64,000 nucleotides of DNA. Source: Eledone cirrhosa. Lineage: Eukaryota. The stretch covers positions 36,022,001 to 36,086,000 of the forward strand of contig OZ024744.1 in NCBI GenBank assembly GCA_964016885.1, given 5' to 3'. This document shows, one piece after another, positions 1 to 61,439 of this stretch (its first letter is position 1; each line of letters opens with the position of its first letter). The translations under genes were made by a program, and so were the position numbers. The notes beneath the pieces are model-generated. The model saw nothing but the letters and a program-made list of their open reading frames with translations, made no database searches and was not told the DNA's origin.

Positions 1-880
1 AGGCTTCTCAGCTGTTAATATGCATAAGGTAATTATATGCGTTCAACAATCTGGCAGGAAGTTATACGTTGCTGACGATAGCTAATAAGCTTGACACTAG
101 TACAGCGTTCCTTTGTCAGAGTTGAACAAACGAGCAACGATGGTTGCTGGACACTACGGCTTAATACCGGATATTTGTTTACAAACACACCGAGCATTAT
201 AATAAATGTTTGGTGAATCCATACGTGAATATATGTATGTGTGCATGTATGTATAGATATATATACATACTACTGTACGTCTGTATACATATATGTATGT
301 ACGTCTACATACTTATATTTAAGTAACAGCCGTACTAAGAGTGGGAAATGAAATTTTGTTTCATTTTTCCGTTTATCGTTTTCGGTGGACCCGGCCGATT
401 AACCCACTCGATATGCAAATTAGGCTTCTCAGCTGTTAATATGCATAAGGTAAGTATATGCGTTCAACAATCTGGCCGAAGGTATACGTTGCTGACGATA
501 GCTAATAAGCTTGACACTAGTACAGCGTTCCTTTGTCAGAGTTGAACAAACGAGCAACGATGGTTGCTGGACACTACGGCTTAATACCGGATATTTGTTT
601 ACAAACACACCGAGCATTAAAATAAATGTTCGGTGAATCCATACGTAAAGATATATATGTGTGCATGTATGTATATATATATACATACAACTGTTCGTTT
701 GTATACGTATATGTATGTACGTGTACATAATTATATTTAAGTAACAGCCGTACTAAGAGTGGGAAATGAAATTTCGTTTCATTTTTTCCGTTTATCGTTT
801 TCGGTGCACCCGGCTTATTAACCCACTCGATATGCAAATTGAGCTTCTCAGCTGTTAATATGTATAAGGTAAGTATATAC

Positions 881-967
881 GTTCAACAATCTGTCAGGAA
901 GGTATACGTTGCTGACGATAGCTAATAAGCTTGAAACTAGTACAGCGCTCCTTTGTCAGTGTTGAAC
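881..967 (+). ncRNA. Type I hammerhead ribozyme motif in the repeat unit (representative copy; present intact or mutated in nearly every unit)
   Basis: CTGACGA at 912-918, stem II agct-aata-agct, GAAAC at 933-937, stem III AC-TA-GT (palindrome ACTAGT), GUA triplet at 940-942, stem I cgttg/cagcg extended by gttcaaca/tgttgaac. Matches the established CUGANGA...GAAA...NUH core. Confidence 0.85.
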
Positions 968-3900
968 AAACGAGCAACGATTGTTGCTGGACACTACGGC
1001 TTAATACGTGATGTTTGTTTACAAACACACCGAGCATTATAGTAAATGTTCGGTGAATCCATACGTACATATATATATATGAGTGTGCATGTATGTATAT
1101 ATATATACATACTACTGTACGTCTTTATACATATATGTATTTTTAAGTAACAGCCGTACTAAGAGTGGGAAATGAAATTTCGTTTCATTTTTCCGTTTAT
1201 CGTTTTCGGTGCACCCGGCCGATTAACCCACTCGATATGCAAATTAGGCTTCTCAGCTGTTAATATGCATAAGGTAAATATATACGTTCAACAATCTGGC
1301 AAGAAGGTGTACGTTGCTGACGATCGCTAATAAGCTTGAAACTAGTACAGCGTTCCTTTGTCAGTGTTGAACAAACGAGCAACGATAGTTGCTGGACACT
1401 ACGGCTTAATACGGGATGTTTGTTTACAAACACAACGAGGATTATAATAAATGTTCGGTGAATCCATACGTACATATATATATGTGTGCATGTATGTATA
1501 TATATATATACATACTACTGTACGTTTCTATACATATATGTATGTACGTGTGCATACTTATATTTAAGTCAGACGTACTAAGGGTGGTAAATGAAATTTC
1601 GTTTCATTTTTTCCGTTTATCGCTTTCGGTGCACCCGGCCGATTAACCCACTCGATATGCAAATTAGGCATCTCAGCTGTTAATATGCATAAGATAAGTA
1701 TATACGTTCAACAATTTGGCAGGAAGGTATACGTTGCTGACGATAGCTAATAAGCTTGAAACAAGTACAGCGTTCCTTTGACAGTGTTGAACAAACGAGC
1801 AACGATGGTTGCTGGACACTACGGCTTAATACGGGATATTTGTTTACAAACACACCAAGCATTAAAATAAATGTTCGGTGAATCCATACGGAAAGATATA
1901 TATGTGTGCATGTATGTATATATAAATATATACATACTACTGTACGTCTGTATACATATATGTATGTACGTTTACATACTTATATTTAAGTAACAGCCGT
2001 ACTAAGAGTGGGAAATTTAATTTTGTTTCATTTTTCCGTTTATCGTTTACGGAGCACCCGGCCGATTAACCCACTCGATATGCAAATTAGGCTTCTCAGC
2101 TGTTATTATGCATAAGGTAAGTATATACGTTCAACAATCTGGCAAGCAGGTATACTTTGCTGACGATAGCTAATAAGCTTGAAACTAGTACAGCGTTCCT
2201 TTGTTAGTGTTGAACAAACGAGCAACGATGGTTGCTGGACACTACGGCTTAATACGGGATGTTTGTTTACAAACACACCGAGCATTATAATAAATGTTCG
2301 GTGTATCCATACGTACATATATATATGTGTGCATGTATGTATATATATATATATATATATACATACTACTGTACGTCTGTATACATATATGTATGTACGT
2401 TTACATACTTATATTTAAGTAACAGCCGTACTAAGAGTGGGAAATGAAATTTCGTTTCATTTTTTCCGTTTATCGTTTTCGGTGCACCCGGCCGATTAAC
2501 CCACTCGATATGCAAATTAGGCATCTCAGCTGTTAATATGCATAAGATTAGTATATACGTTCAACAATTTGGCAGGAAGATATAAGTTGCTGACGATAGC
2601 TAATAAGCTTGAATCTAGTACAGCGTTACTTTGTCAGTGTTGAACAAACGAGCAACGATGGTTGCTGGACACTACGGCTTAATACGGGATATTTGTTTAC
2701 AAACACACCGAGCATTAAAATAAATGTTCTGTGAATCATTACGTAAAGATATATATGTGTGCATGTATGTATATATATATATATACAATCTACTGTACGT
2801 TTGTATACATATATGTATGTACGTGTACATACTTATATTTAAGTAACCGCCGTACTAAGAGTGGGAAATGAAATTTCGTTTCATTTTTTTCCGTTTATCG
2901 TTTTCGGTGCACCCGGCCGATTAACCCACTCGATATGTAAATTGAGGCTTCTCAGCTGTTAATATGCATAAGGTAAGTTTATAGGTTCAACAATCTGGCA
3001 GGAAGTTATATGTTGCTGACGATAGCTAATAAGCTTGAAACTAGTACAGCGTTCTTTTGTCAGTGCTGAACAAACGAGCAACGATGGTTGCTGGACACTA
3101 CGGCTTAATACGGGATGTTTGTTTACAAACACACCGAGTATTATAATAAATGTTCGGTGAATCCATACGTACATATATATATGTGTGCATGTATATATAT
3201 ATATATATACATACTACTGTAACAGCCGTACAAAGAGTGGGAAATGAAATTTCGTTTCATTTTTTCCGTTTATCGTTTTCGGTGCACCCGGCCTATTAAC
3301 CCACTCGATATGCAACTTGACCTTCTCAGCTGTTAATATGCACAAGGTAAGTATATACGTTCAACAATATGTCAGGAAGGTATACGTGGCTGACGATAGC
3401 TAATAAGCTTGAAACTAGTACAGCGTTCCTTTGTCAGTGTTGAACAAACGAGCAACGATGGTTGCTGGACACTACGGCTTAATACGTGATGTTTGTTTAC
3501 AAACACACCGAGCATTATAATAAATGTTCGGTGAATCCATACGTACATATATATATGTGTGCATGTATGTATATATATATACATACTACTGTACGTCTGT
3601 ATACATATATGTATGTACGTGTACATACTTATATTTAAGTAACAGCCGAAATAAGAGTGGGAAATGAAATTTCGTTTCATTTTTTCCGTTTATTGTATTC
3701 GGTGCACCCGGCCGATTAAACCACTCGATATGCAAATTGGGCTTCTCAGCTGTTAATATGCATAAGGTAAGTATATACGTTCAACAATCTAGCAGGAAGG
3801 TATACGTTGCTGACAATAGGTAATAAGCTTGAAATTAGTACAGCGTTCGTTTGTCAGTGTTAAACAAACGAGCAACGATGGTTGATGGACACTACGGCTT

Positions 3901-3989: not shown

Positions 3990-4050
<61 letters not shown>
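3990..4050. repeat. Expanded (TA)n microsatellite at the PLE insertion site
   Basis: About 30 TA units, compared with 5-10 at the same position in other units. A further (TA)10 lies at 7461-7480. Confidence 0.95.
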
Positions 4051-4056
<6 letters not shown>

Positions 4057-4570
4057 ATATTTGGGGAGGGTCATATTTGCGTAATATTGCCAGAATTAAT
4101 AACAGAACACACTCACTGTTTGGTTGGTTTTCGCTTCTCGCTGTCTTTTATATATATATATCTGCGATCTAACTTACTCGGTCCTCAATGTTGCCATTGA
4201 CTGACCGGCGGTCAAAAATAATAATACAGATACAATATAGACAAACACATATATATATAGTTTACATAAATCTTTCGTTGCACATCTGCAACATCGTCAG
4301 TGGTGTTATATTCATTGTTCCTCCTGTTGTGTTGTATGTCTACGCCATTTTTTTTGTTCAGTCTGTCTATATATTTATTTATTTATTTATTTGCTTGTTT
4401 GTTTATCTTATTTTATTTTGTCTTCTTTGCGCATGCGTGTGTGTATAGTGTTATGTGTGATGTGTGACTAGTGTGTATAGTGTTGTGTCTGCTGGGTGAC
4501 TAGTGTGTGTTTATGTGCTTGTGTATGTATTTATTTATCTTATTTTATTTAATTTAATTTACTTATTTAT

Positions 4571-5650
4571 TTATACTTCTCTTAGGTCAGTGTTGTTTGT
4601 TTGGGTGTTGTTGTTGTTCCACTCATTCTTTCTGTTTAGCTTTGGTCTTCTAATTTCTATTTCACTGGCCTCTCTGATTTGCCTATCTGCTGGGTCATTC
4701 CTATGTTTAGATATTATTCTAATTTCTATGTTGTCTATGTTACCGTCATGATGTTGTCTAGCATGTTCGTATAGTACTGACCCGTTTTTTCGTCCTTTTA
4801 GTTCCCCCCAGTGTTGGTCTATCCTTTCACCTATGCTACGAGCTGTCTCACCTATGTATGTTGTTGTCGTGTTTCTGCAAGTACCCTCTGTACATCTTAT
4901 GCTATAGACTACGTTTCTAGTTTTACAGTTTATCCGGGGGTTCACCTTACATATGATACATTTCCTATTGGTACAGTGGGTTTTCTTAAAAGGGTAGGTT
5001 TTGCTGATCAGGGATTTTATGGTGGTTCCTGGCTTTTCTACCACCTTTATTTTTAAGTGGGTCTTTCTCAGGGCCTTTCTACACTGGTTAGCTAATTTCC
5101 CTCCAGGGGTGGCGTCCACAAACATGACACTCTGATATCTCTGGTTGTCGTACCATGATGTGGCCTTCCCTATCTTATGTCTAGCCCTATCTAAGCTATT
5201 CCATGATTTGCTCCTGTATAGTGGGCAAATTCCTTTCATGTCCAGTTCTATGAGGGTCTTATACTTTTCCATGGCTCCTTCGTATACTCTGACTCTGTCT
5301 CTTTGGTTGTAGCCAGAGAACTGCATGCGGTTGATGAAGTGTTGGATGTGTCCTTCCATTTCTGTTGGGTCGCACATGCTGGACACATTCTTCATCACTC
5401 GTACCAAATCTGCGATCAGAATATTAAACTTAGCACTACTGGACATTGCTGAGTTTTTGAGTATCAGGTATTTGGAGGCCATGGGTTTAGCATAGTGTGA
5501 GTGGAGAATTTGGGCTCTCTCGTCTATAGTGTTAATCCAGAGTTCTGTGTCTAATACAGGTAGTCTATTGTTAGGGTGTTTGGAAGGGAAGTCTATAGTT
5601 ACAGTTATACTCTGGTGTATGGAATTAGCTATCTGCTGGATGCTTTCCAT
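4571..5650 (-). CDS. Inverted copy of the Penelope-like RT/GIY-YIG ORF (retains canonical YIGET)
   Basis: The 359-aa translation is identical to 5798-6877 except E for K in YIG(E/K)T. Confidence 0.9.
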   Translation of the reverse strand: MESIQQIANSIHQSITVTIDFPSKHPNNRLPVLDTELWINTIDERAQILHSHYAKPMASKYLILKNSAMSSSAKFNILIADLVRVMKNVSSMCDPTEMEGHIQHFINRMQFSGYNQRDRVRVYEGAMEKYKTLIELDMKGICPLYRSKSWNSLDRARHKIGKATSWYDNQRYQSVMFVDATPGGKLANQCRKALRKTHLKIKVVEKPGTTIKSLISKTYPFKKTHCTNRKCIICKVNPRINCKTRNVVYSIRCTEGTCRNTTTTYIGETARSIGERIDQHWGELKGRKNGSVLYEHARQHHDGNIDNIEIRIISKHRNDPADRQIREASEIEIRRPKLNRKNEWNNNNTQTNNTDLREV

Positions 5651-5797
5651 CGTGCTACGTTCTAAATCAAACTTGTTAGTGCTCTCTAGTGGGGGTGTTC
5701 TTATAACTATATTGATATCAATATAGACGATATCAATATAGTTATAAGAACACCCCCACTAGAGAGCACTAACAAGTTTGATTTAGAACGTAGCACG

Positions 5798-6877
5798 ATG
5801 GAAAGCATCCAGCAGATAGCTAATTCCATACACCAGAGTATAACTGTAACTATAGACTTCCCTTCCAAACACCCTAACAATAGACTACCTGTATTAGACA
5901 CAGAACTCTGGATTAACACTATAGACGAGAGAGCCCAAATTCTCCACTCACACTATGCTAAACCCATGGCCTCCAAATACCTGATACTCAAAAACTCAGC
6001 AATGTCCAGTAGTGCTAAGTTTAATATTCTGATCGCAGATTTGGTACGAGTGATGAAGAATGTGTCCAGCATGTGCGACCCAACAGAAATGGAAGGACAC
6101 ATCCAACACTTCATCAACCGCATGCAGTTCTCTGGCTACAACCAAAGAGACAGAGTCAGAGTATACGAAGGAGCCATGGAAAAGTATAAGACCCTCATAG
6201 AACTGGACATGAAAGGAATTTGCCCACTATACAGGAGCAAATCATGGAATAGCTTAGATAGGGCTAGACATAAGATAGGGAAGGCCACATCATGGTACGA
6301 CAACCAGAGATATCAGAGTGTCATGTTTGTGGACGCCACCCCTGGAGGGAAATTAGCTAACCAGTGTAGAAAGGCCCTGAGAAAGACCCACTTAAAAATA
6401 AAGGTGGTAGAAAAGCCAGGAACCACCATAAAATCCCTGATCAGCAAAACCTACCCTTTTAAGAAAACCCACTGTACCAATAGGAAATGTATCATATGTA
6501 AGGTGAACCCCCGGATAAACTGTAAAACTAGAAACGTAGTCTATAGCATAAGATGTACAGAGGGTACTTGCAGAAACACGACAACAACATACATAGGTAA
6601 GACAGCTCGTAGCATAGGTGAAAGGATAGACCAACACTGGGGGGAACTAAAAGGACGAAAAAACGGGTCAGTACTATACGAACATGCTAGACAACATCAT
6701 GACGGTAACATAGACAACATAGAAATTAGAATAATATCTAAACATAGGAATGACCCAGCAGATAGGCAAATCAGAGAGGCCAGTGAAATAGAAATTAGAA
6801 GACCAAAGCTAAACAGAAAGAATGAGTGGAACAACAACAACACCCAAACAAACAACACTGACCTAAGAGAAGTATAA
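5798..6877 (+). CDS. Penelope-like RT C-terminal part, Cys-rich linker and GIY-YIG endonuclease (5'-truncated; the open frame extends upstream to ~5723, IDDINIV)
   Basis: LPVLDTEL (RT motif 6/7-like), HYAKPM...SGY thumb region, linker CTNRKCIIC, VVYSIRC...C...YIGKT.R...R..QH, EH...H, REA.EI..RPKLN. These are GIY-YIG motifs with the PLE CCHH residues. Confidence 0.9.
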   Translation: MESIQQIANSIHQSITVTIDFPSKHPNNRLPVLDTELWINTIDERAQILHSHYAKPMASKYLILKNSAMSSSAKFNILIADLVRVMKNVSSMCDPTEMEGHIQHFINRMQFSGYNQRDRVRVYEGAMEKYKTLIELDMKGICPLYRSKSWNSLDRARHKIGKATSWYDNQRYQSVMFVDATPGGKLANQCRKALRKTHLKIKVVEKPGTTIKSLISKTYPFKKTHCTNRKCIICKVNPRINCKTRNVVYSIRCTEGTCRNTTTTYIGKTARSIGERIDQHWGELKGRKNGSVLYEHARQHHDGNIDNIEIRIISKHRNDPADRQIREASEIEIRRPKLNRKNEWNNNNTQTNNTDLREV

Positions 6878-7160
6878 ATAAATAAGTAAATTAAATTAAA
6901 TAAAATAAGATAAATAAATACATACACAAGCACATAAACACACACTAGTCACCCAGCAGACACAACACTATACACACTAGTCACACATCACACATAACAC
7001 TATACACACACGCATGCGCAAAGAAGACAAAATAAAATAAGATAAACAAACAAGCAAATAAATAAATAAATAAATATATAGACAGACTGAACAAAAAAAA
7101 ACACAACAAAAAAAAAATGGCGTAGACATACAACACAACAGGAGGAACAATGAATATAAC

Positions 7161-7201
7161 ACCACTGACGATGTTGCAGATGTGCAACGAAAGATTTATG
7201 T
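7161..7201 (+). ncRNA. Hammerhead-like motif in the 3' UTR/pLTR of the Penelope-like element (mirror copy on - strand at ~4264-4304)
   Basis: CTGACGA(7165-7171)-t-gttgca-gatg-tgcaac-GAAA(7189-7192) gives a perfect 6-bp stem II. Stem III (AG-AT-TT, UUA triplet) and stem I (2 bp) are weak. PLE pLTRs are known to carry minimal hammerheads. Confidence 0.5.
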
Positions 7202-10200
7202 AAACTATATATATATGTGTTTGTCTATATTGTATCTGTATTATTATTTTTGACCGCCGGTCAGTCAATGGCAACATTGAGGACCGAGTAAGTTAGATCG
7301 CAGATATATATATATAAAAGACAGCGAGAAGCGAAAACCAACCAAACAGTGAGTGTGTTCTGTTATTAATTCTGGCAATATTACGCAAATATGACCCTCC
7401 CCAAATATAACAATATCTGTTTCGACACACGATTTCATATAAAAAACCTCGCAAAACTAATATATATATATATATATATACATACTACTGTACGTTTGTT
7501 TACATATATGTATGTACGTGTACATACTTATATTTAAGTAACAGCCGTACTAAGAGTGGGAAATGAAATTTCGTTTCATTTTTTCCGTTTATCGTTTTCG
7601 GTGCACCCGGCGATTAACCCACTCGATATGCAAATTAGGCATCTCAGATGTTAATATGGATAAGGTAAGTATATACGTTCAACAATTTGGCAGGATGTAT
7701 ACGTTTCTGACGATAGCTGTGAATCCATACGTACATATATATATATGTGTGCATGTATGTATATATATATACTACTGTACGTCTGTATACATATATGTAT
7801 GTACGTGTACATACTTATCTTTAAGTAACAGTCGTACTAAGAGTGGGAAATGAAATTTCGTTTCATTTTTTCCGTTTATCGTTTTCGGTACACCCGGCCG
7901 ATTAACCCACTCGATATGCAAACTGGGCTTCTCAGCTGTTAATATACATAAGGTAAGTATATACGTTCAACAATCTAGCAGAAAGGTATACGTTGCTGAC
8001 AATAGCTAATAAGCTTGAAACTAGTACAGCGTTCCTTTGTCAGTGTTGAACAAACGAGCAACGATGGATGCTGGACACTACGGCTTAATACGGGTTGTTT
8101 TTTTACAAACACACCGAGCATTATAATAAATGTTCGTTGAATCCATACGTACATATATATATGTGTACATGTATGTATATATATATACTACTGTACGTCT
8201 GTATACATATATGTATGTACATGTACATACTTATATTTAAGTAACAGCCGTACTAAGAGTGGGAAATGAAATTTCATTTCATTTTTTCCGTATCGTTTTC
8301 GGTGCACCCGGCCTATTAACCCACTCGATATGCAAATTGGGCTTCTCAGCTGTTAATATGCATAAAGTAAGTATATACGTTCAATAATCTGGCAGGAAGG
8401 TATACGTTGCTGACGATAGCTAATAAGCTTGAAACTAGTACAGCGTTCCCTTGTTAGTGTTGAACAAACGAGCAACGATGGTTGCTGGACACTACGGCTT
8501 AATACGTGATGTTTCTTTACAAACACACCGAGCATTATAAAAAATGTTCGGTGAATCCATACGTACATGTATATATATGTGTGTGCATGTATGTATATAT
8601 ATATACATATTACTGTACGTCTGTATACATATATGTATGTACGTCTACATACTTATATTTAAGTAACAGCCGTACTAAGTGTGGGAAATGAAATTTCGTT
8701 TCATTTTTTCCGTTTATCGTTTTCGGTGAACCCGGCCGATTGACCCACTGGATATGCAAATTAGGCTTCTCAGCTGGTAATATGCATAAGGTAAGTATAT
8801 ACATTCAACGATCTAGCTGGAAGGTATACGTTGTTGACAATAGCTAATAAGCTTGAAACTACTACAGCGCTCCTTCGTCAGTGTTGAACAAACGAGCAAC
8901 GATGGTTGCTGGACACTACGGCTTAATACGGGTTGTTTTTTTACAAACACACCGAGAATTATAATAAATGTTCGGTGAATCCATACGTACATATATATAT
9001 ATATATATATGTGTGTGCATGTATGTATATATATATATACACAGTACTGTACGTCTGAATACACATATGTATGTACGTGTACATACTTATATTTAAGTAA
9101 GAGCCGTACAAAGAATGGGAAATGAAATTTCGTTTCATTTTTTCCGTTCATCGTTTTCGGTGCATCCGGCCGATTAACCCACTCGATATGCAAATTGGGC
9201 TTCTCAGCTGTTAATATTCATAAGGTAAGTATATACGTTCAACAATCTAGCAGAAAGGTATACGTTGCTGACGATAGCTAATAAGCTTGAAACTAGTACA
9301 GCATTCCTTTGTCAGTGTTGAACAAACGAGCAACGATGGTTGCTGGACACTATGGCTTAATACGTGATGTTTGTTTACAAACACACCGAGCATTATGAAA
9401 AATGTTCGGTGAATCCATACGTACATATATATATGTGTGCATGCATGTATATATATATACTACTGTACGTCTGTATACATATATGTATGTCCGTGTACAT
9501 ACTTATATTTAAGTAACAGCTGTACTAAGAGTGGGAAATGAAATTACGTTTCATTTTTTCCGCTTATCGTTTTCGGTGCACCCTGCCGATTAACCCATTC
9601 GATATGCAAATTGGGCATCTCAGCTTTTAATATGCATGAGGTAAGTATATACGTTCAACAATCTGCCAGGAAGGTATACGTTGCTAACGATAGCTAATAA
9701 GCTTGAAACTAGTACAGCGTTCCTTTGTCAGTGTTGAACAAACGAGCAACGATGGTTGCTGGACACTACGGCTTAATACGGGATGTTTCTTTACAAACAC
9801 ACGGAGCATTATAATATATGTTCGGTGAAGCCATACGTACATATATAAATGTGTGCATGTATGTATATATATATACATACTACTGTACGTCTGTATACAT
9901 ATATGTATGTACGTGTACATACTTATATTTAAGTAACAGCCGTACTAAGAGTGGGAAATCAAATTTCGTTTCATTTTTTAGGTTTATCGTTTTCGGTGCA
10001 CCCGGCCAATTAACCCACTCGATATGCAAACTGGGCTTCTCAGCTGTTAATATGCATAAGGTAAGTATATACGTTCAACAATCTAGCAGGAAGGTATACG
10101 TTGCTGACAATAGCTAATAAGCTTGAAACTAGTATAGCGTTCCTTTGTCAGTGTTAAACAAACAAGCAACGATGGTTGCTGGACACTACGGCTTAATACC

Positions 10201-16200: not shown

Positions 16201-17999
16201 TATATATACATACTACTGTACGTCTGTATACATATATGTATGTACGTGTACATACTTATATTTAAATAACAGCCGTACTAAGAGTGGGAAATGAAATTTC
16301 GTTTCATTTTTTCCGTTTATCGTTTTCGGTGCACCCGGCCGATTAACCCACTCGATATGCAAATTGAGCTTCTCAGCTGTTAATATGCATCAGGTAAGTA
16401 TATACGTTCAACAATCTAGCAGGAAGGTATACGTTACTGACGATAGCTAATAAGCTTGAAACTAGTACAGCGTTCCTTTGTCAGTGTTGAACAAACGAGC
16501 AACGATGGTTGCTGGACACTACGGCTTAATATGGGATGTTTGTTTACAAAAACACCGAGCATTATAATAAATGTTCGGTGAATCCATACGTACATATATA
16601 TATGTGTGCATGTATGTATATATACATACTACAGTACGGCTGTATACATATATGTATTTACGTGTACATACTTATATTTAAGTAACGGCCGTACTAAGTG
16701 TGGCAAATGAAATTTCGTTTCATTTTTTCCGTTTATCGTTTCCGGTGAACCCGGCCGATTGACCCACTGGATATGCAAATTAGGCTTCTCAGCTGTTAAT
16801 ATGCATAAGGTAAGTATATACATTCAACGATCTAGCTGGAAGGTATACGTTGCTGACAATAGCTAATAAGCTTGAAACTACTACAGCGTTCCTTCGTCAG
16901 TGTTGAACAAACGAGCAACGATGGTTGCTGGACACTACGGCTTAATATGGGATGTTTGTTTACAAAAACACCGAGCATTATAATAAATGTTCGGTGAATC
17001 CATACGTACATATATATATATGTGTGTGCATGCATGTATATATATATACATACTACTGTACGTCTGTATACATATATGTATGTACGTGTACATACTTATC
17101 TTTAAGTAACAGCCGTACTAAGAGTGGGAAATGAAATTTCGTTTAATTTTTTCCGTTTATCGTTTTCGGTGCACCCGGCCGATTAACCCAATCGATATGC
17201 AAATAGGGCTTCTCAGCTGTTAATATGCATAAGGCAAGTATATACGTTTAACAATCTGGCAGGAATGTATACGCTGCTGACAATAGCTAATAAGCTTGAA
17301 ACTAGTACAGCATTCCTTTGTCAGTGTTGAACAAACGATCAACGATGGTTGCTGGACACTACGGCTTAATACGGGATGTTTGTTTACAAACACACCGAGC
17401 ATTATAATAAATGTTCGGTAAATCCATACGTAAATATATATGTGTGCATGTATGTATATATATATACATACTACTGTACGTCTGTATACATATATGTATG
17501 CACGTGTACATACTTATATTTAAATAACAGCCGTACTAAGAGTGGGAAATGAAATTTCGTTTCATTTTTTCCGTTTATCGTTTTCGGTGCACCCGGCCGA
17601 TTAACCCACTCGATATGCAAATTGGGCTTCTCAGCTGTTAATATGCATCAGGTAAGTATATACGTTCAACAATCTAGCAGGAAGGTATACGTTGCTGACG
17701 ATAGCTAATAAGCTTGAAACTAGTACAGCGTTCCTTTGTCAGTGTTGAACAAACGAGCAACGATGGTTGCTGGACACTACGGCTTAATATGGGATGTTTG
17801 TTTTCAAAAACAACGAGCATTATAATAAATGTTCGTTGAATCCATACGTACATATATATATGTGTGCATGTATGTATATATACATACTACAGTACGGCTG
17901 TATACATATATGTATTTACGTGTACATACTTATATTTAAGTAACGGCCGTACTAAGTGTGGGAAATGAAATTTCGTTTCATTTTTTCCGTTTATCGTTT

Positions 18000-49000: not shown

Positions 49001-50849
49001 CATTATAATAAATGTTCGGTGAATCCATACGTACAGATATATATATGTGTGTGCATGTATGTATATATATATATACATACTATTGTACGTCTGTATACAT
49101 ATATGTATGTACGTGTACATACTTATATTTAAGTAACAGCCGTACTAAGAGTGGGAAATGAAATTTCGTTTCATTTTTTCCGTTTATCGTATTCGGTGCA
49201 CCCGGCCGATTAACCCACTCGATATGCAAATTGGGCTTCTCAGCTGTTAATATGCATAAGGAAAGTATATACGTTCAACAATCTGGCAGGAAGGTATACG
49301 TTGTTGACGATAGCTAATAAGCTTGAAACTAGTACAGCGTTCCTACGTCAGTATTAAACAAACGAGCAACGATGGTTGCTGCACACTACGGCTTAATACG
49401 GGATGTTTGTTTACAAACACACCGAGCATTATAATAAATGTTCGGTGAATCCATACGTACATATATATATGTGTGCATGTATGTATATATATATACATCC
49501 TATTGTACGTCTGTATACATATATGTATGTACGTCTACATACTTATATTTAAGTAACAGCCGTACTAAGAGTGGGAAAAGAAATTTCGTTTCATTTTTTC
49601 CGTTTATCGTTTTAGGTGCACCCGGCCGATTAACCCACTCGATATGCAAATTGGGCTTCTCAGCTGTTAATATGCATAAGGAAAGTATATATGTTCAACA
49701 ATCTGGCAGGAAGGTATACGCTGCTGACGATAGCTAATAAGCTTGAAACTAGTACAGCGTTCCTTTGTCAGTGTTGAACAAACGAGCAACGATAGTTGCG
49801 GGACACTACGGCTTAATACGGGATGTTTGATTACAATCACACCGAGCATTATAATAAATGTTCGGTGAATCCATACGTACATATATATATATGTGTGCAT
49901 ATATGTGTATATATATACGTACTACTGTACGTTTGTATACATATATGTTTGTACGCCTACATACTTATATTTAAGTAACAGCCGTAATAAGACTGGGAAT
50001 GAAATTTCGTTTCATTTTTTCCGTTTATCGTTTTCGGTGCACCCGGCCGATTGACCCACTGGATATGCAAATTAGGCTTCTCAGCTGTTAATATGCATAA
50101 GGTAAGTATATACGTTCAACGATCTAGCTGGAAGGTATACGTTGTTGACAATAGCTAATAAGCTTGAAACTACTACAGCGTTCCTTAGTCAGTGTTGAAC
50201 AAACGAGCAACGATGGTTGCTGGACACTACGGCTTAATACGGATTGTTTGTTTACAAACAAACCGAGCATTATAATTAATGTTCGGTGTATCCATACGTA
50301 CATATATATATATATGTGTGTGCATGTATGTATATATATATACATCCTATTGTACGTCTGTATACATATATGTATGTACGTCTACATACTTATATTTAAG
50401 TATCAGCCGTACTAAGTGTGGGAAATGAAATTCGTTTCATTTTTTCCGTTTATCGTTTTCGGTGCACCCGGCCGATTAACCCACTCGATATGCAAATTGG
50501 GCTTCTCAGCTGTTAATATGCATAAGGAAGTATATATGTTCAACAATCTGGCAGGAAGATATACGTTGTTGACGATAGCTAATAAGCTTGAAACTAGTAC
50601 AGCGTTCCTACGTCAGTGTTGAACAAAAGAGCAGCGATGGTTGCTGGACACTACGGCTGAATACGTGATGTTTGTTTACAAACACACCGTGCATTATAAT
50701 AAATGTTCGGTGAATCCATACGTACAGATATATATATGTGTGTGCATGTATGTATATATATATACATACTATTGTACGTCTGTATACATATATGTATGTA
50801 CGTGTACATACTTATATTTAAGTAACAGCCGTACTAAGAGTGGGAAATG

Positions 50850-53800
50850 AAATTTCGTTTCATTTATTCCGTTAATCGTTTTCGGTGCACCTTGCCTATT
50901 AACCCACTCGATATGCAAATTGGGCTTCTCAGCTGTTCATATGCATAAGGTAAGTATATACGTTCAACAATCTGGCAGGAAGGTATACGTTGCTGACGAT
51001 AGCTGATAAGCTTGAAACTAGTACAGCGTTCCTTTGTCAGTTTTGAACAAACGAGCAACGATGGTTGCTGGACACTACGGCTTAATACGTGATGTTTGTT
51101 TACAAACAAACCGAGCATTATAATTAATGTTCGGTGAATCCATACGTACATATATATATATGTGTGTGCATGTATGTATATATATATACATCCTATTGTA
51201 CCTCTGTATACATATAAGTATGTACGTGTACATACTTATATTTAAGTAACAGCCGTACTAAGAGTGGGAAATGAAATTTCGTTTCATTTTTTCCGTTTAT
51301 CGTTTTCGGTGCACCCGGCCGATTAACCTACTCGATATGCAAATTAGGCATCTCAGCTGTTAATATGCATAAGGTAAGTATATACGTTCAACAATTTGGC
51401 AGGAAAGTATACGTTGCTGACGATAGCTAATAAGCTTGAAACTAGTACTGCGTTCCTACGTCAGTGTTGAACAAACGAGCAGCGATGGTTGCTGGACACT
51501 ACAGCTGAATACGTGATGTTTGTTTACAAACACACCGAGCATTATAATAAATGTTCGGTGAATCCATAGGTACAGATATATATATGTGTGTGCATGTATG
51601 TATATATATATACATACTATTGTACGTCTGTATACATATATGTATGTACGTCTACATACTTATATTTAAGTAACAGCCGTACTAAGAGTAGGAAATGAAA
51701 TTTCGTTTCATTTTTTCCGTTTATCGTTTTCGGTGCACCCGGCCGATTAACCCACTCGATATGCAAATTGGGCTTCTCAGCTGTTAATATGCATCAGGAA
51801 AGTATATACGTTCAACAATCTGGCAGGAAGGTGTACGTTGTTGATGATAGCTAATAAGCTTGAAACTAGTACATCGTTCCTACGTCAGTGTTGATCAAAC
51901 GAGCAACGATGTTTGCTGGACACTACGGCTTAATACGGGATGTTTGTTTACAAACACACCGAGCATTATAATAAATGTTCGGTGAATCCATACGTACAGA
52001 TATATATATGTGTGTGCATGTATGTATATATATATACATACTATTGTACGTCTGTATACATATATGTATGTACGTGTACATACTTATATTTAAGTAACAG
52101 CCGTACTAAGAGTGGGAAATGAAATTTCCTTTCATTTTTTCCGTTTATCGTTTTCGGTGCACCCGGCCGATTAACCCACTCGATATGCAAATTGGGCTTC
52201 TCAGCTGTTAATATGCATAAAGAAAGTATATACGTTCAACAATCTGGCAGGAAGGTATACGTTGTTGACGATAGCTAATAAGCTTGAAACTTGTACAGCG
52301 TTCCTACGTCAGTATTGAACAAACGAGCAACGATGGTTGCTGCACACTACGGCTTAATACGGGATGTTTGTTTACAAACACACCGAGCATTATAATAAAT
52401 GTTCGGTGAATCCATACGTACAAGTATATATATGTGTGTGCATGTATGTATATATATATACATACTATTGTACGTCTGTATACATATATGTATGTACGTG
52501 TACATACTTATATTTAAGTAACAGCCGTACTAAGAGTGGGAAATGAAATTTCGTTTCATTTTTTCCGTTTATCGTTTTCGGTGCACCCGGCCGATTAACC
52601 CACTCGATATGCAAATTAGGCATCTCATCTGTTAATATGCATAAGGTAAGTATATACGTTCAACTATTTGGCAGGAAGGTATACGTTGCTGTTGATAGCT
52701 AATAAGCTTGAAACTAGTACAGCGTTGCTTTTGTCAGTTTTGTACAAACGAGCAACGATGGTTGCTGGACACTACGGCTTAATACGTGATGTTTGTTTAC
52801 AAACAAACCGAGCATTATAATAAATGTTCGGTGAATCCATACGTACATATATATATGTGTGCATGTATGTATATATATATACATCCTATTGTACGTCTGT
52901 ATACATATATGTATGTACGTCTACATACTTATATTTAAGTAACAGCCGTACTAAGAGTGGGAATTGAAATTTCGTTTCATTTTTCCGTTTATCGTTTTCG
53001 GTGCACCCGGCCGATTAAGCTGCTCGATATGCAAATTGGGCTTCTCAGCTGTTAATATGCATAAGGTAAGTATATACGTTCAACAATCTGGCAGGAAGGT
53101 ATACGTTGCTGACGATAGCTAATAAGCTTGAAACTAGTACAGAGTTCCTACGTCAGTGTTGAACAAACGAGCAACGATGGTTGCTGGACACTACGGCTTA
53201 ATACGGGATGTTTGTTTACAAACACATCGAGCATTATAATAAATGTTCGGTGAAACCATACGTTCATATATATATATATGTGTGCATGTATGTATATATA
53301 TATACATCCTATTGTACGTCTGTATACATATATGTATGTACGTCTACATACTTATATTTAAGTAATAGCCGTACTAAGAGTGCCAAATCAAATTTCGTTT
53401 CATTTTTTCCGTAACGTTTTCGGTGCACCCGGCCGATTAACCCACTCGATATGCAAATTAGGCATCTCAGCTGTTAATATGCATAAGGTAAGTATATACG
53501 TTCAACAATCTGGCAGGAAGTTATACGTTGCTGACGATAGCTAATAAGCTTGAAACTAGTACAGCGCTCCTTTGTCAGTGTTGAACAAACGAGCAACGAT
53601 GGTTGCTGGACACTACGGCTGAATACGGGATGTTTGTTTACAAAGACACCGAGCATTATAATAAATGTTCGGTGAATCTATACGTAAATATATATATGTG
53701 TGCATGTATGCATATATATATACATACTACTGTACGTCTGTATACATATATGTATGTACGTCTACATACTTATATTTAAGTAACAGACGTACTAAGAGTG

Positions 53801-56800
53801 GGAAAAGAAATTTCGTTTCATTTCTTCCGTTTATCGTTTTCGGTGCACTCGGCCGATTAACCCGCTCGATATGCAAATTGGGCTTCTTAGCTGTTAATAT
53901 GCATTAGTTAAGTATATACGTTCAACAATCTAGCAGGAAGGTATACGTTGCTGACGATAGCTAATAAACTTGAAACTAGTACAGCGTTTCTTTGTCAGTG
54001 TTGAACAAACGAACAACGATGGTTGCTGGACACTACGGCTTAATACGTGATGTTTGTTTACAAACATACCGAGCATTATAATAAATGTTCGGTGAATCCA
54101 TACGTACATATATATATATGTGTGTGCATGTATTTATATATATATATACATCCTATTGTACGTCTGTATACATATATGTATGTACGTCTACATACTTATA
54201 TTTAAGTAACAGCCGTACTAAGAGTGGGAAATGAAATTTCGTTTCATTTATTCCGTTAATCGTTTTCGGTGCACCTTGCCTATTAACCCACTCGATATGC
54301 AAATTGGGCTTCTCAGCTGTTCATATCCATAAGGTAAGTATATACGTTCAACAATCTGGCAGGAAGGTATACGTTGCTGACGATAGCTGATAAGCTTGAA
54401 ACTAGTACAGCGTTCCTTTGTCAGTTTTGAACAAACGAGCAACGATGGTTGCTGGACACTACGGCTTAATACGTGATGTTTGTTTACAAACAAACCGAGC
54501 ATTATAATTAATGTTCGGTGAATCCATACGTACATATATATATATGTGTGTGCATGTATGTATATATATATACATCCTATTGTACCTCTGTATACATATA
54601 AGTATGTACGTGTACATACTTATATTTAAGTAACAGCCGTACTAAGAGTGGGAAATGAAATTTCGTTTCATTTTTTCCGTTTATCGTTTTCGGTGCACCC
54701 GGCCGATTAACCTACTCGATATGCAAATTAGGCATCTCAGCTGTTAATATGCATAAGGTAAGTATATACGTTCAACAATTTGGCAGGAAAGTATACGTTG
54801 CTGACGATAGCTAATAAGCTTGAAACTAGTACAGCGTTCCTACGTCAGTGTTGAACAAACGAGCAGCGATGGTTGCTGGACACTACAGCTGAATACGTGA
54901 TGTTTGTTTACAAACACACCGAGCATTATAATGAATGTTCGGTGAATCCATAGGTACAGATATATATATGTGTGTGCATGTATGTATATATATATACATA
55001 CTATTGTACGTCTGTATACATATATGTATATACGTCTACATACTTATATTTAAGTAACAGCCGTACTAAGAGTAGGAAATGAAATTTCGTTTCATTTTTT
55101 CCGTTTATCGTTTTCGGTGCACCCGGCCGATTAACCCACTCGATATGCAAATTGGGCTTCTCAGCTGTTAATATGCATCAGGAAAGTATATACGTTCAAC
55201 AATCTGGCAGGAAGGTGTACGTTGTTGATGATAGCTAATAAGCTTGAAACTAGTACATCGTTCCTACGTCAGTGTTGAACAAACGAGCAACGATGGTTGC
55301 TGGACACTACGGCTTAATACGGGATGTTTGTTTACAAACACACCGAGCATTATAATAAATGTTCGGTGAATCCATACGTACAGATATATATATGTGTGTG
55401 CATGTATGTATATATATATACATACTATTGTACGTCTGTATACATATATGTATGTACGTGTACATACTTATATTTAAGTAACAGCCGTACTAAGAGTGGG
55501 AAATGAAATTTCGTTTCATTTTTTCCGTTTATCGTTTTCGGTGCACCCGGCCGATTAACCCACTCGATATGCAAATTGGGCTTCTCAGCTGTTAATATGC
55601 ATAAAGAAAGTATATACGTTCAACAATCTGGCAGGAAGGTATACGTTGTTGACGATAGCTAATAAGCTTGAAACTTGTACAGCGTTCCTACGTCAGTATT
55701 GAACAAACGAGCAACGATGGTTGCTGCACACTACGGCTTAATACGGGATGTTTGTTTACAAACACACCGAGCATTATAATAAATGTTCGGTGAATCCATA
55801 CGTACAAGTATATATATGTGTGTGCATGTATGTATATATATATACATACTATTGTACGTCTGTATACATATATGTATGTACGTGTACATACTTATATTTA
55901 AGTAACAGCCGTACTAAGAGTGGGAAATGAAATTTCGTTTCATTTTTCCGTTTATCGTTTTCGGTGCACCCGGCCGATTAACCCACTCGATATGCAAATT
56001 AGGCATCTCATCTGTTAATATGCATAAGGTAAGTATATACGTTCAACTATTTGGCAGGAAGGTATACGTTGCTGTTGATAGCTAATAAGCTTGAAACTAG
56101 TACAGCGTTGCTTTTGTCAGTTTTGTACAAACGAGCAACGATGGTTGCTGGACACTACGGCTTAATACGTGATGTTTGTTTACAAACAAACCGAGCATTA
56201 TAATAAATGTTCGGTGAATCCATACGTACATATATATATGTGTGCATGTATGTATATATATATACATCCTATTGTACGTCTGTATACATATATGTATGTA
56301 CGTCTACATACTTATATTTAAGTAACAGCCGTACTAAGAGTGGGAATTGAAATTTCGTTTCATTTTTCCGTTTATCGTTTTCGGTGCACCCGGCCGATTA
56401 AGCTGCTCGATATGCAAATTGGGCTTCTCAGCTGTTAATATGCATAAGGTAAGTATATACGTTCAACAATCTGGCAGGAAGGTATACGTTGCTGGCGATA
56501 GCTAATAAGCTTGAAACTAGTACAGAGTTCCTACGTCAGTGTTGAACAAACGAGCAACGATGGTTGCTGGACACTACGGCTTAATACGGGATGTTTGTTT
56601 ACAAACACATCGAGCATTATAATAAATGTTCGGTGAAACCATACGTTCATATATATATATATGTGTGCATGTATGTATATATATATACATCCTATTGCAC
56701 GTCTGTATACATATATGTATGTACGTCTACATACTTATATTTAAGTAATAGCCGTACTAAGAGTGCCAAATCAAATTTCGTTTCATTTTTTCCGTAACGT

Positions 56801-59800
56801 TTTCGGTGCACCCGGCCGATTAACCCACTCGATATGCAAATTAGGCATCTCAGCTGTTAATATGCATAAGGTAAGTATATACGTTCAACAATCTGGCAGG
56901 AAGTTATACGTTGCTGACGATAGCTAATAAGCTTGAAACTAGTACAGCGCTCCTTTGTCAGTGTTGAACAAACGAGCAACGATGGTTGCTGGACACTACG
57001 GCTGAATACGGGATGTTTGTTTACAAAGACACCGAGCATTATAATAAATGTTCGGTGAATCTATACGTAAATATATATATGTGTGCATGTATGCATATAT
57101 ATATACATACTACTGTACGTCTGTATACATATATGTATGTACGTCTACATACTTATATTTAAGTAACAGACGTACTAAGAGTGGGAAAAGAAATTTCGTT
57201 TCATTTCTTCCGTTTATCGTTTTCGGTGCACTCGGCCGATTAACCCGCTCGATATGCAAATTGGGCTTCTTAGCTGTTAATATGCATTAGTTAAGTATAT
57301 ACGTTCAACAATCTAGCAGGAAGGTATACGTTGCTGACGATAGCTAATAAACTTGAAACTAGTACAGCGTTTCTTTGTCAGTGTTGAACAAACGAACAAC
57401 GATGGTTGCTGGACACTACGGCTTAATACGTGATGTTTGTTTACAAACATACCGAGCATTATAATAAATGTTCGGTGAATCCATACGTACATATATATAT
57501 ATGTGTGTGCATGTATTTATATATATATACATCCTATTGTACGTCTGTATACATATATGTATGTACGTCTACATACTTATATTTAAGTAACAGCCGTACT
57601 AAGAGTGGGAATTGAAATTTCGTTTCATTTTTCCGTTTATCGTTTTCGGTGCACCCGGCCGATTAACCTGCTCGATATGCAAATTGGGCTTCTCAGCTGT
57701 TAATATGCATAAGGTAAGTATATACGTTCAACAATCTGGCAGGAAGGTATACGTTGCTGACGATAGCTAATAAGCTTGAAACTAGTACAGAGTTCCTACG
57801 TCAGTGTTGAACAAACGAGCAACGTTGGTTGCTGGACACTACGGCTTAATACGGGATGTTTGTTTACAAACACATCGAGCATTATAATAAATGTTCGGTG
57901 AAACCATACGTTCATATATATATATATGTGTGCATGTATGTATATATATATACATCCTATTGTACGTCTGTATACATATATGTATGTACGTCTACATACT
58001 TATATTTAAGTAATAGCCGTACTAAGAGTGCCAAATCAAATTTCGTTTCATTTTTTCCGTAACGTTTTCGGTGCACCCGGCCGATTAACCCACTCGATAT
58101 GCAAATTAGGCATCTCAGCTGTTAATATGCATAAGGTAAGTATATACGTTCAACAATCTGGCAGGAAGTTATACGTTGCTGACGATAGCTAATAAGCTTG
58201 AAACTAGTACAGCGCTCCTTTGTCAGTGTTGAACAAATGAGCAACGATGGTTGCTGGACACTACGGCTGAATACGGGATGTTTGTTTACAAAGACACCGA
58301 GCATTATAATAAATGTTCGGTGAATCTATACGTAAATATATATATGTGTGCATGTATGCATATATATATACATACTACTGTACGTCTGTATACATATATG
58401 TATGTACGTGTACATACTTATATTTAAGTAACAGCCGTACTAAGAGTGGGAAATGAAATTTCGTTTCATTTATTCCGTTAATCGTTTTCGGTGCACCTTG
58501 CCTATTAACCCACTCGATATGCAAATTGGGCTTCTCAGCTGTTCATATGCATAAGGTAAGTATATACGTTCAACAATCTGGCAGGAAGGTATACGTTGCT
58601 GACGATAGCTGATAAGCTTGAAACTAGTACAGCGTTCCTTTGTCAGTTTTGAACAAACGAGCAACGATGGTTGCTGGACACTACGGCTTAATACGTGATG
58701 TTTGTTTACAAACAAACCGAGCATTATAATTAATGTTCGGTGAATCCATACGTACATATATATATATGTGTGTGCATGTATGTATATATATATACATCCT
58801 ATTGTACCTCTGTATACATATAAGTATGTACGTGTACATACTTATATTTAAGTAACAGCCGTACTAAGAGTGGGAAATGAAATTTCGTTTCATTTTTTCC
58901 GTTTATCGTTTTCGGTGCACCCGGCCGATTAACCTACTCGATATGCAAATTAGGCATCTCAGCTGTTAATATGCATAAGGTAAGTATATACGTTCAACAA
59001 TTTGGCAGGAAAGTATACGTTGCTGACGATAGCTAATAAGCTTGAAACTAGTACAGCGTTCCTACGTCAGTGTTGAACAAACGAGCAGCGATGGTTGCTG
59101 GACACTACAGCTGAATACGTGATGTTTGTTTACAAACACACCGAGCATTATAATAAATGTTCGGTGAATCCATACGTACAGATATATATATGTGTGTGCA
59201 TGTATGTATATATATATACATACTATTGTACGTCTGTATACATATATGTATGTACGTGTACATACTTATATTTAAGTAACAGCCGTACTAAGAGTGGGAA
59301 ATGAAATTTCGTTTCATTTTTCCGTTTATCGTTTTCGGTGCACCCGGCCGATTAACCCACTCGATATGCAAATTAGGCATCTCATCTGTTAATATGCATA
59401 AGGTAAGTATATACGTTCAACTATTTGGCAGGAAGGTATACGTTGCTGTTGATAGCTAATAAGCTTGAAACTAGTACAGCGTTGCTTTTGTCAGTTTTGT
59501 ACAAACGAGCAACGATGGTTGCTGGACACTACGGCTTAATACGTGATGTTTGTTTACAAACAAACCGAGCATTATAATAAATGTTCGGTGAATCCATACG
59601 TACATATATATATGTGTGCATGTATGTATATATATATACATCCTATTGTACGTCTGTATACATATATGTATGTACGTCTACATACTTATATTTAAGTAAC
59701 AGCCGTACTAAGAGTGGGAATTGAAATTTCGTTTCATTTTTCCGTTTATCGTTTTCGGTGCACCCGGCCGATTAAGCTGCTCGATATGCAAATTGGGCTT

Positions 59801-61000
59801 CTCAGCTGTTAATATGCATAAGGTAAGTATATACGTTCAACAATCTGGCAGGAAGGTATACGTTGCTGGCGATAGCTAATAAGCTTGAAACTAGTACAGA
59901 GTTCCTACGTCAGTGTTGAACAAACGAGCAACGATGGTTGCTGGACACTACGGCTTAATACGGGATGTTTGTTTACAAACACATCGAGCATTATAATAAA
60001 TGTTCGGTGAAACCATACGTTCATATATATATATATGTGTGCATGTATGTATATATATATACATCCTATTGTACGTCTGTATACATATATGTATGTACGT
60101 CTACATACTTATATTTAAGTAATAGCCGTACTAAGAGTGCCAAATCAAATTTCGTTTCATTTTTTCCGTAACGTTTTCGGTGCACCCGGCCGATTAACCC
60201 ACTCGATATGCAAATTAGGCATCTCAGCTGTTAATATGCATAAGGTAAGTATATACGTTCAACAATCTGGCAGGAAGTTATACGTTGCTGACGATAGCTA
60301 ATAAGCTTGAAACTAGTACAGCGCTCCTTTGTCAGTGTTGAACAAACGAGCAACGATGGTTGCTGGACACTACGGCTGAATACGGGATGTTTGTTTACAA
60401 AGACACCGAGCATTATAATAAATGTTCGGTGAATCTATACGTAAATATATATATGTGTGCATGTATGCATATATATATACATACTACTGTACGTCTGTAT
60501 ACATATATGTATGTACGTCTACATACTTATATTTAAGTAACAGACGTACTAAGAGTGGGAAAAGAAATTTCGTTTCATTTCTTCCGTTTATCGTTTTCGG
60601 TGCACCCGGCCGATTAACCCGCTCGATATGCAAATTGGGCTTCTTAGCTGTTAATATGCATTAGTTAAGTATATACGTTCAACAATCTAGCAGGAAGGTA
60701 TACGTTGCTGACGATAGCTAATAAACTTGTAACTAGTACAGCGTTTCTTTGTCAGTGTTGAACAAACGAACAACGATGGTTGCTGGACACTACGGCTTAA
60801 TACGTGATGTTTGTTTACAAACATACCGAGCATTATAATAAATGTTCGGTGAATCCATACGTACATATATATATATGTGTGTGCATGTATTTATATATAT
60901 ATACATCCTATTGTACGTCTGTATACATATATGTATGTACGTCTACATACTTATATTTAAGTAACAGCCGTACTAAGAGTGGGAAAAGAAATTTCGTTTC
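50850..61000 (+). repeat. Higher-order repeat block with an 8-unit (~3384 bp) period plus partial copies
   Basis: Recurrences at 50864/54248, 51940/55324 and 53208/56591/59965, with shared rare variants such as gctgttgatag, aagctgctcg and tgccaaatcaaa. Confidence 0.85.
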
Positions 61001-61439
61001 ATTTTTTCCGTTTATCGTTTTCGGTGCACCCGGCCGATTAACCCACTCGATATGCAAATTGGGCTTCTCAGCTGTTAATATGCATAAGGTAAGTATATAC
61101 GTTCAACAATCTGGCAGGAAGGTTTACGTTGCTGACGATAGCTAATAAGCTTGAAACTAGTACACCGTTCCTTTGTCAGTGTTGAACAAACGAGCAACGA
61201 TGGTTGCTGGACACTACGGCTTAATACGGGATGTTTGTTTACAAACACACCGAGCATTATAATAAATGTTCAGTGAATCCATACGTACATATATATATAT
61301 GTGTGCATGTATGTATATATATATACTACTGTACGTCTGTATATATATATGTATGTACGTGTACATACTTATATTTAAGTAACAGCCGTACTAAGAGTGG
61401 GAAATGAAATTTCGTTTCATTTTTTTCGTTTATATATAT

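What the first reader, a model, noticed from the sequence alone, without database searches (positions are those of the whole stretch)
1..61430. A >58-kb satellite whose ~420-bp unit is a hammerhead ribozyme cassette (giant retrozyme-like array)
Seen: every unit has CTGACGA...GAAAC-TA-GTA with stems I-III. Stem I continues as gttcaaca-at-ctggc-agga-aggtat-acgttg / cagcgt-tcct-tt-gtcag-tgttgaac, about 23 bp with internal bulges, which is unlikely by chance. Known: tandem type I hammerhead repeats occur in newt satellite 2, schistosome Sm-alpha, Dolichopoda pDo500 and metazoan non-LTR retrozymes, where palindromic stem III allows dimeric ribozymes and unit-length linear or circular RNAs. Inference: this is such a family amplified to ~135+ copies with higher-order structure. 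A read-through transcript could be cut into ~420-nt monomers or circles. I cannot tell whether this family has already been described. The U.U at positions 10.1-11.1 is non-canonical.
Basis: partly seen in the sequence, partly recalled or inferred. Interest (0 to 1): 0.9.

Follow-up and report, generated by a model that had tools for sequence, protein, structure and literature searches.

The report
Decaying hammerhead retrozyme array, Penelope-inserted
This 66-kb array of about 149 repeats, each with a hammerhead ribozyme motif (intact in only about a third), belongs to a known kind of animal mobile repeat, and the ends of its relatives across the genome match those of Penelope retrotransposons, which likely pasted it in as a multi-copy block that later expanded and decayed.

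Summary
The array is real: 138 units (median 422 bp) in the window, 149 in all (about 66 kb). The type I hammerhead is real too, with compensatory changes against two sister families about 62% identical. But only 52 of 138 units keep the core and 38 keep core plus stems; the core is no better conserved than the rest of the unit. It is one locus of a dispersed family (4,586 exact 40-nt core matches): a non-LTR retrozyme, a known kind, with arrays up to 300 units already reported.

Copies end at two fixed sites about 57 nt apart in (TA)n, and 12 of 12 two-armed insertions have one end of each type. That is the Penelope 'tail' signature, also shown by a young 1,210-aa Penelope-like family, one copy of which sits inside this array. 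Young sister-family insertions are already arrays (up to 25 units, letter-identical in both arms). The array is likely one such insertion, later enlarged by 5-, 8- and 9/10-unit duplications. Cleavage, expression, a circular template and the partner element are untested or not found.

The parts
1..61433 (+). Retrozyme family A array: 138 units in the window (median 422 bp). It continues 11 units upstream to G000:C28:36017405, where it abuts an RTE/BovB-like LINE (LINE label recalled from the translated motifs).
881..967 (+). Example hammerhead cassette with long bulged stem I: CGTTG 907-911, core 912-918, stem II 920-931, GAAA 933-936, palindrome ACTAGT 936-941, predicted cut after A942, CAGCG 943-947
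4050..7460 (.). Two-armed (head-to-head palindromic, 98.9% identical arms) 5'-truncated Penelope-like insertion in the (TA)n tract of one unit. The left arm ends at the short site; the right arm carries a 45-nt tail (7416-7460).
5690..6877 (+). Open frame, 395 aa stop to stop: C-terminal part of a 1,210-aa Penelope-like RT + GIY-YIG protein. Mirror copy at 4571-5758 on -.
17656..34029 (+). Region of 9/10-unit higher-order repeats (approximate bounds)
34030..51377 (+). Region dominated by 5-unit higher-order repeats (approximate bounds)
51378..61433 (+). Region of 8-unit higher-order repeats (approximate bounds)
61375..61433 (+). 'Tail' of the last unit, between the family's short 3' end site (61374) and long 3' end site (61433). 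The array ends exactly at the long site and runs into (TA)n.
61440..61704 (.). Small two-armed insertion of an unrelated hammerhead-like family (family C; core degenerate here) in the array's terminal (TA)n; short end left, about 57-nt tail right

Best explanation
The array is one locus of a dispersed, non-coding hammerhead repeat family (a non-LTR retrozyme) whose copies end at two fixed sites in (TA)n, and it was likely pasted in as a multi-unit block by the enzymes of a Penelope-like element, then enlarged by local block duplications while its ribozymes decayed. Steps. (1) INFERRED: a tandem donor is transcribed and neighbouring hammerheads pair through the ACUAGU palindrome and cut after GUA, releasing a ~420-nt highly structured RNA that is ligated into a circle. 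(2) SHOWN as a footprint, enzyme INFERRED: a Penelope-type GIY-YIG endonuclease nicks both strands of a (TA)n tract, and reverse transcription starts inside the RNA at two sites 216 and 273 nt after the cut site, one site per strand. This gives head-to-head arms with a tail on one end only. (3) SHOWN for sister family D, INFERRED for this locus: each arm can be many units long from the start (up to 18 per arm, 25 per insertion), most simply because the RT goes round a circle. (4) SHOWN: all units here share one founder type, radiate star-like, and were later multiplied in 5-, 8- and 9/10-unit blocks; core bases mutate as freely as the rest. Step odds: Penelope-type mobilisation 0.9; founder ribozyme active 0.8; born multi-unit 0.75; circular template 0.55.
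For: Dispersed: 4,586 exact 40-nt core matches, reversed-pattern control 0. Ends: in 35 family A loci 42 ends were called (22 long, 20 short), and 12 of 12 loci with both arms called have one of each (0.5^12 = 2e-4 if arms chose freely). The same holds for 13 of 13 two-armed family B loci and 10 of 10 paired arms of the Penelope-like family. The 133-unit array on C1 has a short inverted end and a long end; this array ends at the long site. In vitro a Penelope RT starts at two internal sites that bound the tail and extends both strands (PMC11167929). Autonomous element present: 105 scored matches, nearly all 99% identical, many with ~1,217-aa open frames; atlas neighbours carry HTH_animal and GIY-YIG. 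Ribozyme selected between families: sisters B and D are 62% identical to A; 8 of 18 pairs change on both sides, 92% of cells pair against 33-43% when slid, and the core columns are invariant. All three families fold as circles into parallel branched structures, 40-60 kcal/mol below block shuffles. Born as arrays: 51 of 53 full D units at 4 loci on 3 chromosomes are letter-identical, in both arms. Single founder: two bases fixed in all 145 aligned units; array one clade in all 200 bootstrap trees, with an open base. No selection in the array: non-majority fraction 0.073 in core columns, 0.034 elsewhere; alleles per column 0.92 against 0.97. Dispersed copies of the same type lie nearer the array's column-majority than any living unit in 9 of 9 segments, so the decayed units are not recent donors.
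Against: No cleavage or RNA data. In one study only 1 of 9 predicted retrozyme dimers cleaved in vitro. The partner element was not found: the unit has no sequence likeness to the 3' regions of the two Penelope-like families seen (score 28 against shuffles 24+/-3; four more UTRs within or just above the shuffle range), and tail lengths differ (44-60 nt in the element, 57 in A, about 70 in B/D). Two of 20 loci fetched for a dead core (L174, 2 units; L187, 3 units) have all units dead at G12, and several D insertions are mixtures of unit types rather than one type or a clean period (L175, L183, L188). The identical D type occurs at 7 loci, so a homogeneous linear multimer from a sister array could also be the template. 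Hammerhead cleavage was not needed for the anole element in vitro. This array's own 5' end is lost at a LINE, so its second arm cannot be checked. Covariation rests on 8 sequences that are really 2-3 lineages. No Rfam hammerhead match.
Confidence: 0.75

Rival explanations
1. Penelope-type enzymes move the element, but the template is an uncut linear multimer transcribed from another array; the hammerhead is incidental to mobility and no circle is needed.
For: Hammerhead mutants did not affect insertion by the anole element in vitro. All-dead insertions L174 and L187 and mixed-type insertions exist. One D type sits in several homogeneous arrays that could feed each other.
Against: Core and stems are conserved with compensatory changes between families 62% identical. 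The longest arm of that D type (18 ribozymes) has no longer donor in the assembly. In four dimer-periodic insertions (C1:49.6, 19.3, 54.24, 47.24 Mb) one of the two units carries a change in or next to the ribozyme, as expected if uncut dimers were circularised; this is a small, hand-picked set.
Confidence: 0.3
2. An ordinary satellite that grew from one orphaned Penelope terminal repeat (pLTR) purely by unequal crossover, as proposed for retrozyme arrays in the 2026 preprint.
For: Higher-order repeats show that local duplication did enlarge the array; the core is not under selection here; the model is stated.
Against: No pLTR homologue was found. The family has its own fixed ends and thousands of dispersed copies. 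Zero-divergence insertions in family D already hold up to 25 units in two opposed arms on different chromosomes. The array's tree has a star-like base, with 38 lineages at 4% and 22 at 5% divergence.
Confidence: 0.12
3. The giant array is kept by the host as a factory for ribozyme-cut RNAs or circles.
For: 38 of 138 units are still intact; retrozyme circles are abundant in other animals.
Against: Core-breaking variants have spread through the higher-order repeats. Units are about twice as far from the founder type (mean 7.6 differences in 222 sites) as dispersed copies of that type (median 4).
Confidence: 0.05
4. The array length or the identical young arrays are assembly artefacts.
For: Identical tandem units are hard to assemble; no read piece spanning the tested stretch was listed.
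Against: Units here differ by about 6% with ordered higher-order structure. Ends are precise and reproducible across loci. 13,747 contigs of one public run lie on the unit, with a (TA)n loose end at the long site in 56 of them.
Confidence: 0.03

Closest known systems
Metazoan non-LTR retrozymes (PMC7229834: coral 220-245 bp, mussel 350-390 bp, axolotl 330/350 bp; bioRxiv 10.64898/2026.07.22.740005)
   Same: Tandem non-coding units under 450 bp, GC under 50%, a type I hammerhead per unit with a short palindromic helix III, thousands of dispersed copies, long arrays (62-mers in coral, 180 in axolotl, 300 in a beetle), co-occurrence with Penelope-like elements. U.U at the base of helix II as in axolotl HHR_Amex2.
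   Different: A different sequence family; most units here are decayed; expression and cleavage not shown. Two fixed 3' ends, opposed arms, one-sided tail and (TA)n targeting are not mentioned in the main texts of these two papers (term searches; supplements not seen). No pLTR homologue found, unlike 24 of 57 Xenopus families.
EN+ Penelope-like elements, Neptune-type architecture (10.1101/2021.04.23.441226; PMC11167929)
   Same: 5'-truncated tandem and inverted insertions, a tail on one end only, microsatellite targets, two internal RT start sites, hammerhead upstream of the 3' end.
   Different: The repeat encodes no protein, has a canonical hammerhead rather than a minimal one, has a longer tail (57-70 nt against 30-40), and inserts as many short units. 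The clade label 'Neptune' rests on the CxxC linker motif as described, not on a tree.
Newt satellite 2, schistosome Sm-alpha, cricket pDo500 (recalled; the first two are cited)
   Same: Satellite-like tandem repeats with type I hammerheads that likely need dimers.
   Different: No sequence comparison was made; no tRNA-like part or A box was found here; no Rfam hammerhead model matches.

Membership tests
non-LTR retrozyme | Tandem units of about 150-450 bp, GC below 50% | tested here: met
   median 422 bp; GC 36-38%
non-LTR retrozyme | Type I hammerhead core and helices I-III in the unit | tested here: met
   52 of 138 cores, 38 fully paired; covariation across families
non-LTR retrozyme | [quoted passage not shown] | tested here: met
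   9 adjacent intact pairs among 149 units; the stricter wording 'in all repeats' is not met
non-LTR retrozyme | No protein coding, no tRNA-derived part | tested here: met
   longest ATG frame 112 aa, not shared by all units; no tRNA gene
non-LTR retrozyme | Dispersed copies across the genome | tested here: met
   4,586 exact matches; hits on many contigs
non-LTR retrozyme | Self-cleavage in vitro | not testable with these tools
   needs transcription assay; ACUAGU self-duplex -4.8 kcal/mol against +2.4 for the common ACUACU variant
non-LTR retrozyme | Expressed as unit-length linear and circular RNA | not testable with these tools
   needs RNA data that the tools did not offer; see Tried and rejected
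non-LTR retrozyme | Target-site duplication | tested here: inconclusive
   both ends run into (TA)n, which hides a duplication
Non-autonomous element moved by a Penelope-like element | Fixed 3' ends at two sites, tail on one arm of inverted insertions, variable 5' truncation | tested here: met
   12 of 12 A loci, 13 of 13 B loci, same as 10 of 10 element pairs
Non-autonomous element moved by a Penelope-like element | Intact autonomous element in the genome | tested here: met
   1,210-aa frame, tandem 4.1-kb copies, 99% identical family; Pfam and PDB gave no match; atlas lead GIY-YIG; RT motifs read from recall
pLTR-derived retrozyme | Sequence homology to the pLTR of an autonomous element | tested here: not met
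   none against the two element families held; other families in the genome were not sampled
Rfam hammerhead families | Match at gathering score | tested here: not met
   0 matches; none among 116 at E<=10

The most novel reading that the evidence does not exclude
This genome records the full retrozyme life cycle. A Penelope enzyme pair nicks both strands of a (TA)n tract and rolls round one ribozyme-made RNA circle from two start sites, one per strand, so 10-kb satellite arrays are born in a single event with opposed arms. Circle size (monomer, dimer, multimer) is set by which donor ribozymes still cut. Satellite birth by rolling-circle retrotransposition could then be reconstituted from a still-intact 1,210-aa element and a letter-identical young RNA, both in hand.
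Probability: 0.4. Interest if true: 0.75.

Novelty: new member of a known kind. Interest (0 to 1): 0.5.

Why it matters
The array itself is a large but ordinary, decaying example of a known class. Its value is as an entry to an open question: which element moves animal retrozymes, and how their tandem arrays arise. Published support for Penelope-like elements is co-occurrence, shared hammerheads and pLTR likeness in frogs. Here three related families carry the insertion signature of these elements, and the youngest shows arrays that are multi-unit at zero divergence. That favours birth as arrays over growth from a monomer and supplies named reagents for a direct test.

Tried and rejected
RNA evidence: no RNA holder listed; 4 runs of unknown kind in 2 studies. 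Two of them were laid as contigs: organism A holds the family at very high depth and organism B holds a diverged relative (533-nt contig, 18 differences over 364 nt); neither says anything on expression. Rfam: only AT-hairpin miRNA models, all below gathering score. Pfam and PDB sequence search did not recognise the element's protein. Search for a partner pLTR: local alignments against five 3' regions, element hits near retrozyme loci (13 of 150 ribozyme-bearing loci had a hit; I looked at only some, and saw no unit joined to an ORF), and a pattern for further stem II types (5 hits; 4 are A variants by sequence, 1 an old A relative). Test of selection in family D by counting core mutants: 20 G12 and 3 G5 mutants against 8 at a control site outside the ribozyme: uninformative. 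Idea that dead ribozymes never fill a whole insertion: rejected by L174 and L187. Idea that each young insertion has a private sequence type (suggested by 11 loci): rejected for the one type tested, which sits at 7 loci. Idea that U3-A8 units are compensated active cores (such a variant is described): unlikely, 15 of 16 also have a broken helix III. Pol III promoter: no A box; a B-box-like 8-mer on - in 114 places, taken as chance. Earlier findings of the scan: nothing returned. The host was not identified; 'octopus' and 'cephalopod' were used only as guesses in paper searches, which listed no paper on hammerhead repeats in that group.
Full report
OBSERVATION. The window lies at G000:C28:36022001-36086000 in a 3.0-Gb genome. 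A ~420-bp unit is repeated 138 times on + from 1 to 61433, with one gap at about 4050-7460. Eleven more units lie upstream, so the array has 149 units over about 66 kb. Its 5' end abuts a LINE-like endonuclease frame. The claim that every unit has the core is wrong: 52 of 138 match the core pattern, and 38 of 138 also keep stems I and II. Among all 149 units the C3/G8 pair reads CG in 70, CA in 39, TG in 21, TA in 16, other 2, unparsed 1; helix III is broken in 37. Rfam has no matching hammerhead model.

THE RIBOZYME IS REAL AT FAMILY LEVEL. Two sister families were found in the same genome: B (465 bp) and D (465-468 bp). B and D are 94% identical to each other and 62% to A over the whole unit; a pattern fitting D gives 5,277 matches, control 0. 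In an alignment of 8 cassettes the core columns and ACTAGT are invariant while stems I and II change on both sides: 8 of 18 pairs, 92% of cells paired against 33-43% when partners are slid. These 8 rows are only 2-3 independent lineages. The whole unit folds well below dinucleotide shuffles (z -6.8; opposite strand -5.1), and A, B and D give parallel branched circles. A monomeric helix III is unfavourable and the ACUAGU duplex favourable, which fits the dimer model described in PMC4209133. Activity is untested.

THE FAMILY IS MOBILE AND HAS PENELOPE FOOTPRINTS. The intact 40-nt core occurs 4,586 times. I examined 35 family A loci: 6, 21 distinct ones among the first 30 places, and 8 from fetched stretches; nearly all were chosen by an intact or near-intact ribozyme and most lie on contig C1. 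Copies are 5'-truncated at varied places but end at two sites, 216 and 273 nt after the cut site, and run into (TA)n. Of 42 ends called, 22 were long and 20 short; 5 loci gave no call; all 12 loci with two opposed arms called had one of each. Family B shows the same in 13 of 13 two-armed loci. The gap in the array is a palindromic, 5'-truncated copy of a protein-coding element that sits in a unit's own TA tract. Its family has a 1,210-aa frame and over 100 near-identical copies. I read RT and GIY-YIG motifs in it from recall; Pfam and PDB did not recognise it, and atlas neighbours carry HTH_animal and GIY-YIG. Its insertions end in (TA)n with one short and one tailed arm in 10 of 10 pairs. Inverted 5' copies, a one-sided tail and microsatellite targets are known marks of Penelope-like elements, and the tail lies between two internal RT start sites in vitro. 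The retrozyme therefore behaves as a Penelope passenger. The particular partner is not identified: no likeness to the 3' regions of the two element families held.

HOW THE ARRAY AROSE. In family D, 12 loci picked from the listing for being multi-unit show near-zero divergence within and between arms and a median of 7 differences between loci. One type occurs as 69 copies at 7 loci; at the 4 loci read, 51 of 53 full units are letter-identical, with arms of up to 18 ribozymes. Such arrays are long before any divergence, so they were likely inserted as arrays. The window's array looks like an old one. All 145 aligned units share two bases rare elsewhere (0 and 2 of 28 other units), the 25 sampled units form one clade with an open base, pairwise divergence is about 6%, and it ends exactly at the long site. 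A second old array of 133 units on C1 keeps both a short inverted end and a long end. Later growth was by block duplication (periods 9/10, 5, 8); 145 units fall to 70 lineages at 2% and 22 at 5%. The core is not spared. The array's marker occurs 199 times, 90 of them in the array. Nine segments from 7 of 10 such dispersed loci are all closer to the array's column-majority than to any living unit, so they are siblings or early offspring. One of them shares two derived core changes with array units, which may be parallel mutation.

CIRCLE OR LINEAR TEMPLATE. A circle explains long identical arms most simply and is the published proposal. Four dimer-periodic insertions each have one altered ribozyme. 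Against: L174 and L187 consist only of G12-dead units, several insertions are mixtures, homogeneous sister arrays could serve as linear donors, and cleavage was dispensable for the anole element in vitro. I put the circle at 0.55.

COMPARISON AND NOVELTY. The element meets the testable features of metazoan non-LTR retrozymes. Arrays of 180 and 300 units are on record, and so is the U.U pair. A Penelope link is already proposed. Term searches of the two main retrozyme papers found no mention of tails, opposed arms or microsatellite targets for retrozymes, and six library searches listed no paper on this point or on this family. The library lacks most subscription papers, repeat databases were not available, and supplements were not seen; they may list this family. 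Papers seen: 10.64898/2026.07.22.740005, parts 1-3 of 5 (abstract to end of discussion) plus term search; PMC7229834, parts 2-4 of 6 plus term search; PMC11167929, parts 1-2 of 4; PMC4209133, part 1 of 4 plus passages; 10.1101/2021.04.23.441226 and PMC6765202, passages only.

VERDICT. A new member of a known kind. The giant array is a decaying relic, less surprising than scored; the surrounding family gives unusually clean evidence on how retrozymes move. Interest 0.5.

Noticed in passing
window 61440-61704; L084:1235-1445: Family C: a short unrelated hammerhead-like element with long stem II and near-palindromic stem III, inserted as two opposed arms with a one-sided ~57-nt tail in (TA)n.
   Followed up: partly
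L104-L123 (B), L124-L193, L211-L214 (D): Sister retrozyme families B and D; D looks currently active, with letter-identical multi-unit insertions on several chromosomes and a GUU cut site.
   Followed up: yes
L156+L157 (G000:C1:56.39 Mb): D insertion with 11+11 ribozymes; one arm carries a single variant with an exact 3-unit period and the other arm lacks it.
   Followed up: partly
L014, L022, L045, L091: A second, older Penelope-like family (54-70% aa identity to the young one) with a minimal hammerhead-like motif in its 3' region and the same short/tailed ends.
   Followed up: partly
loci L007-L081: Many further hammerhead-like motifs of other families in flanking DNA, including 310-bp tandem pairs in L047 and L076; the genome is rich in such elements.
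   Followed up: no
L018-L020 + L094-L096 (G000:C1:96.98-97.04 Mb); L088-L090 (C1:51.77-51.79 Mb): Two more large family A arrays, 133 and 50 units, each its own clade with its own higher-order repeats.
   Followed up: yes
L011:3000-5404: LINE-like element (endonuclease frame with a stop; RTE/BovB label recalled) whose 5' end abuts the array's first unit.
   Followed up: partly
window 61900-61970; L066 and L085: A short stretch between TA tracts recurs, reversed, beside a Penelope-like end on another chromosome; possibly another small (TA)n-associated element.
   Followed up: no
window 62612-63361: (GA)n and (CA)n microsatellite blocks downstream of the array.
   Followed up: no
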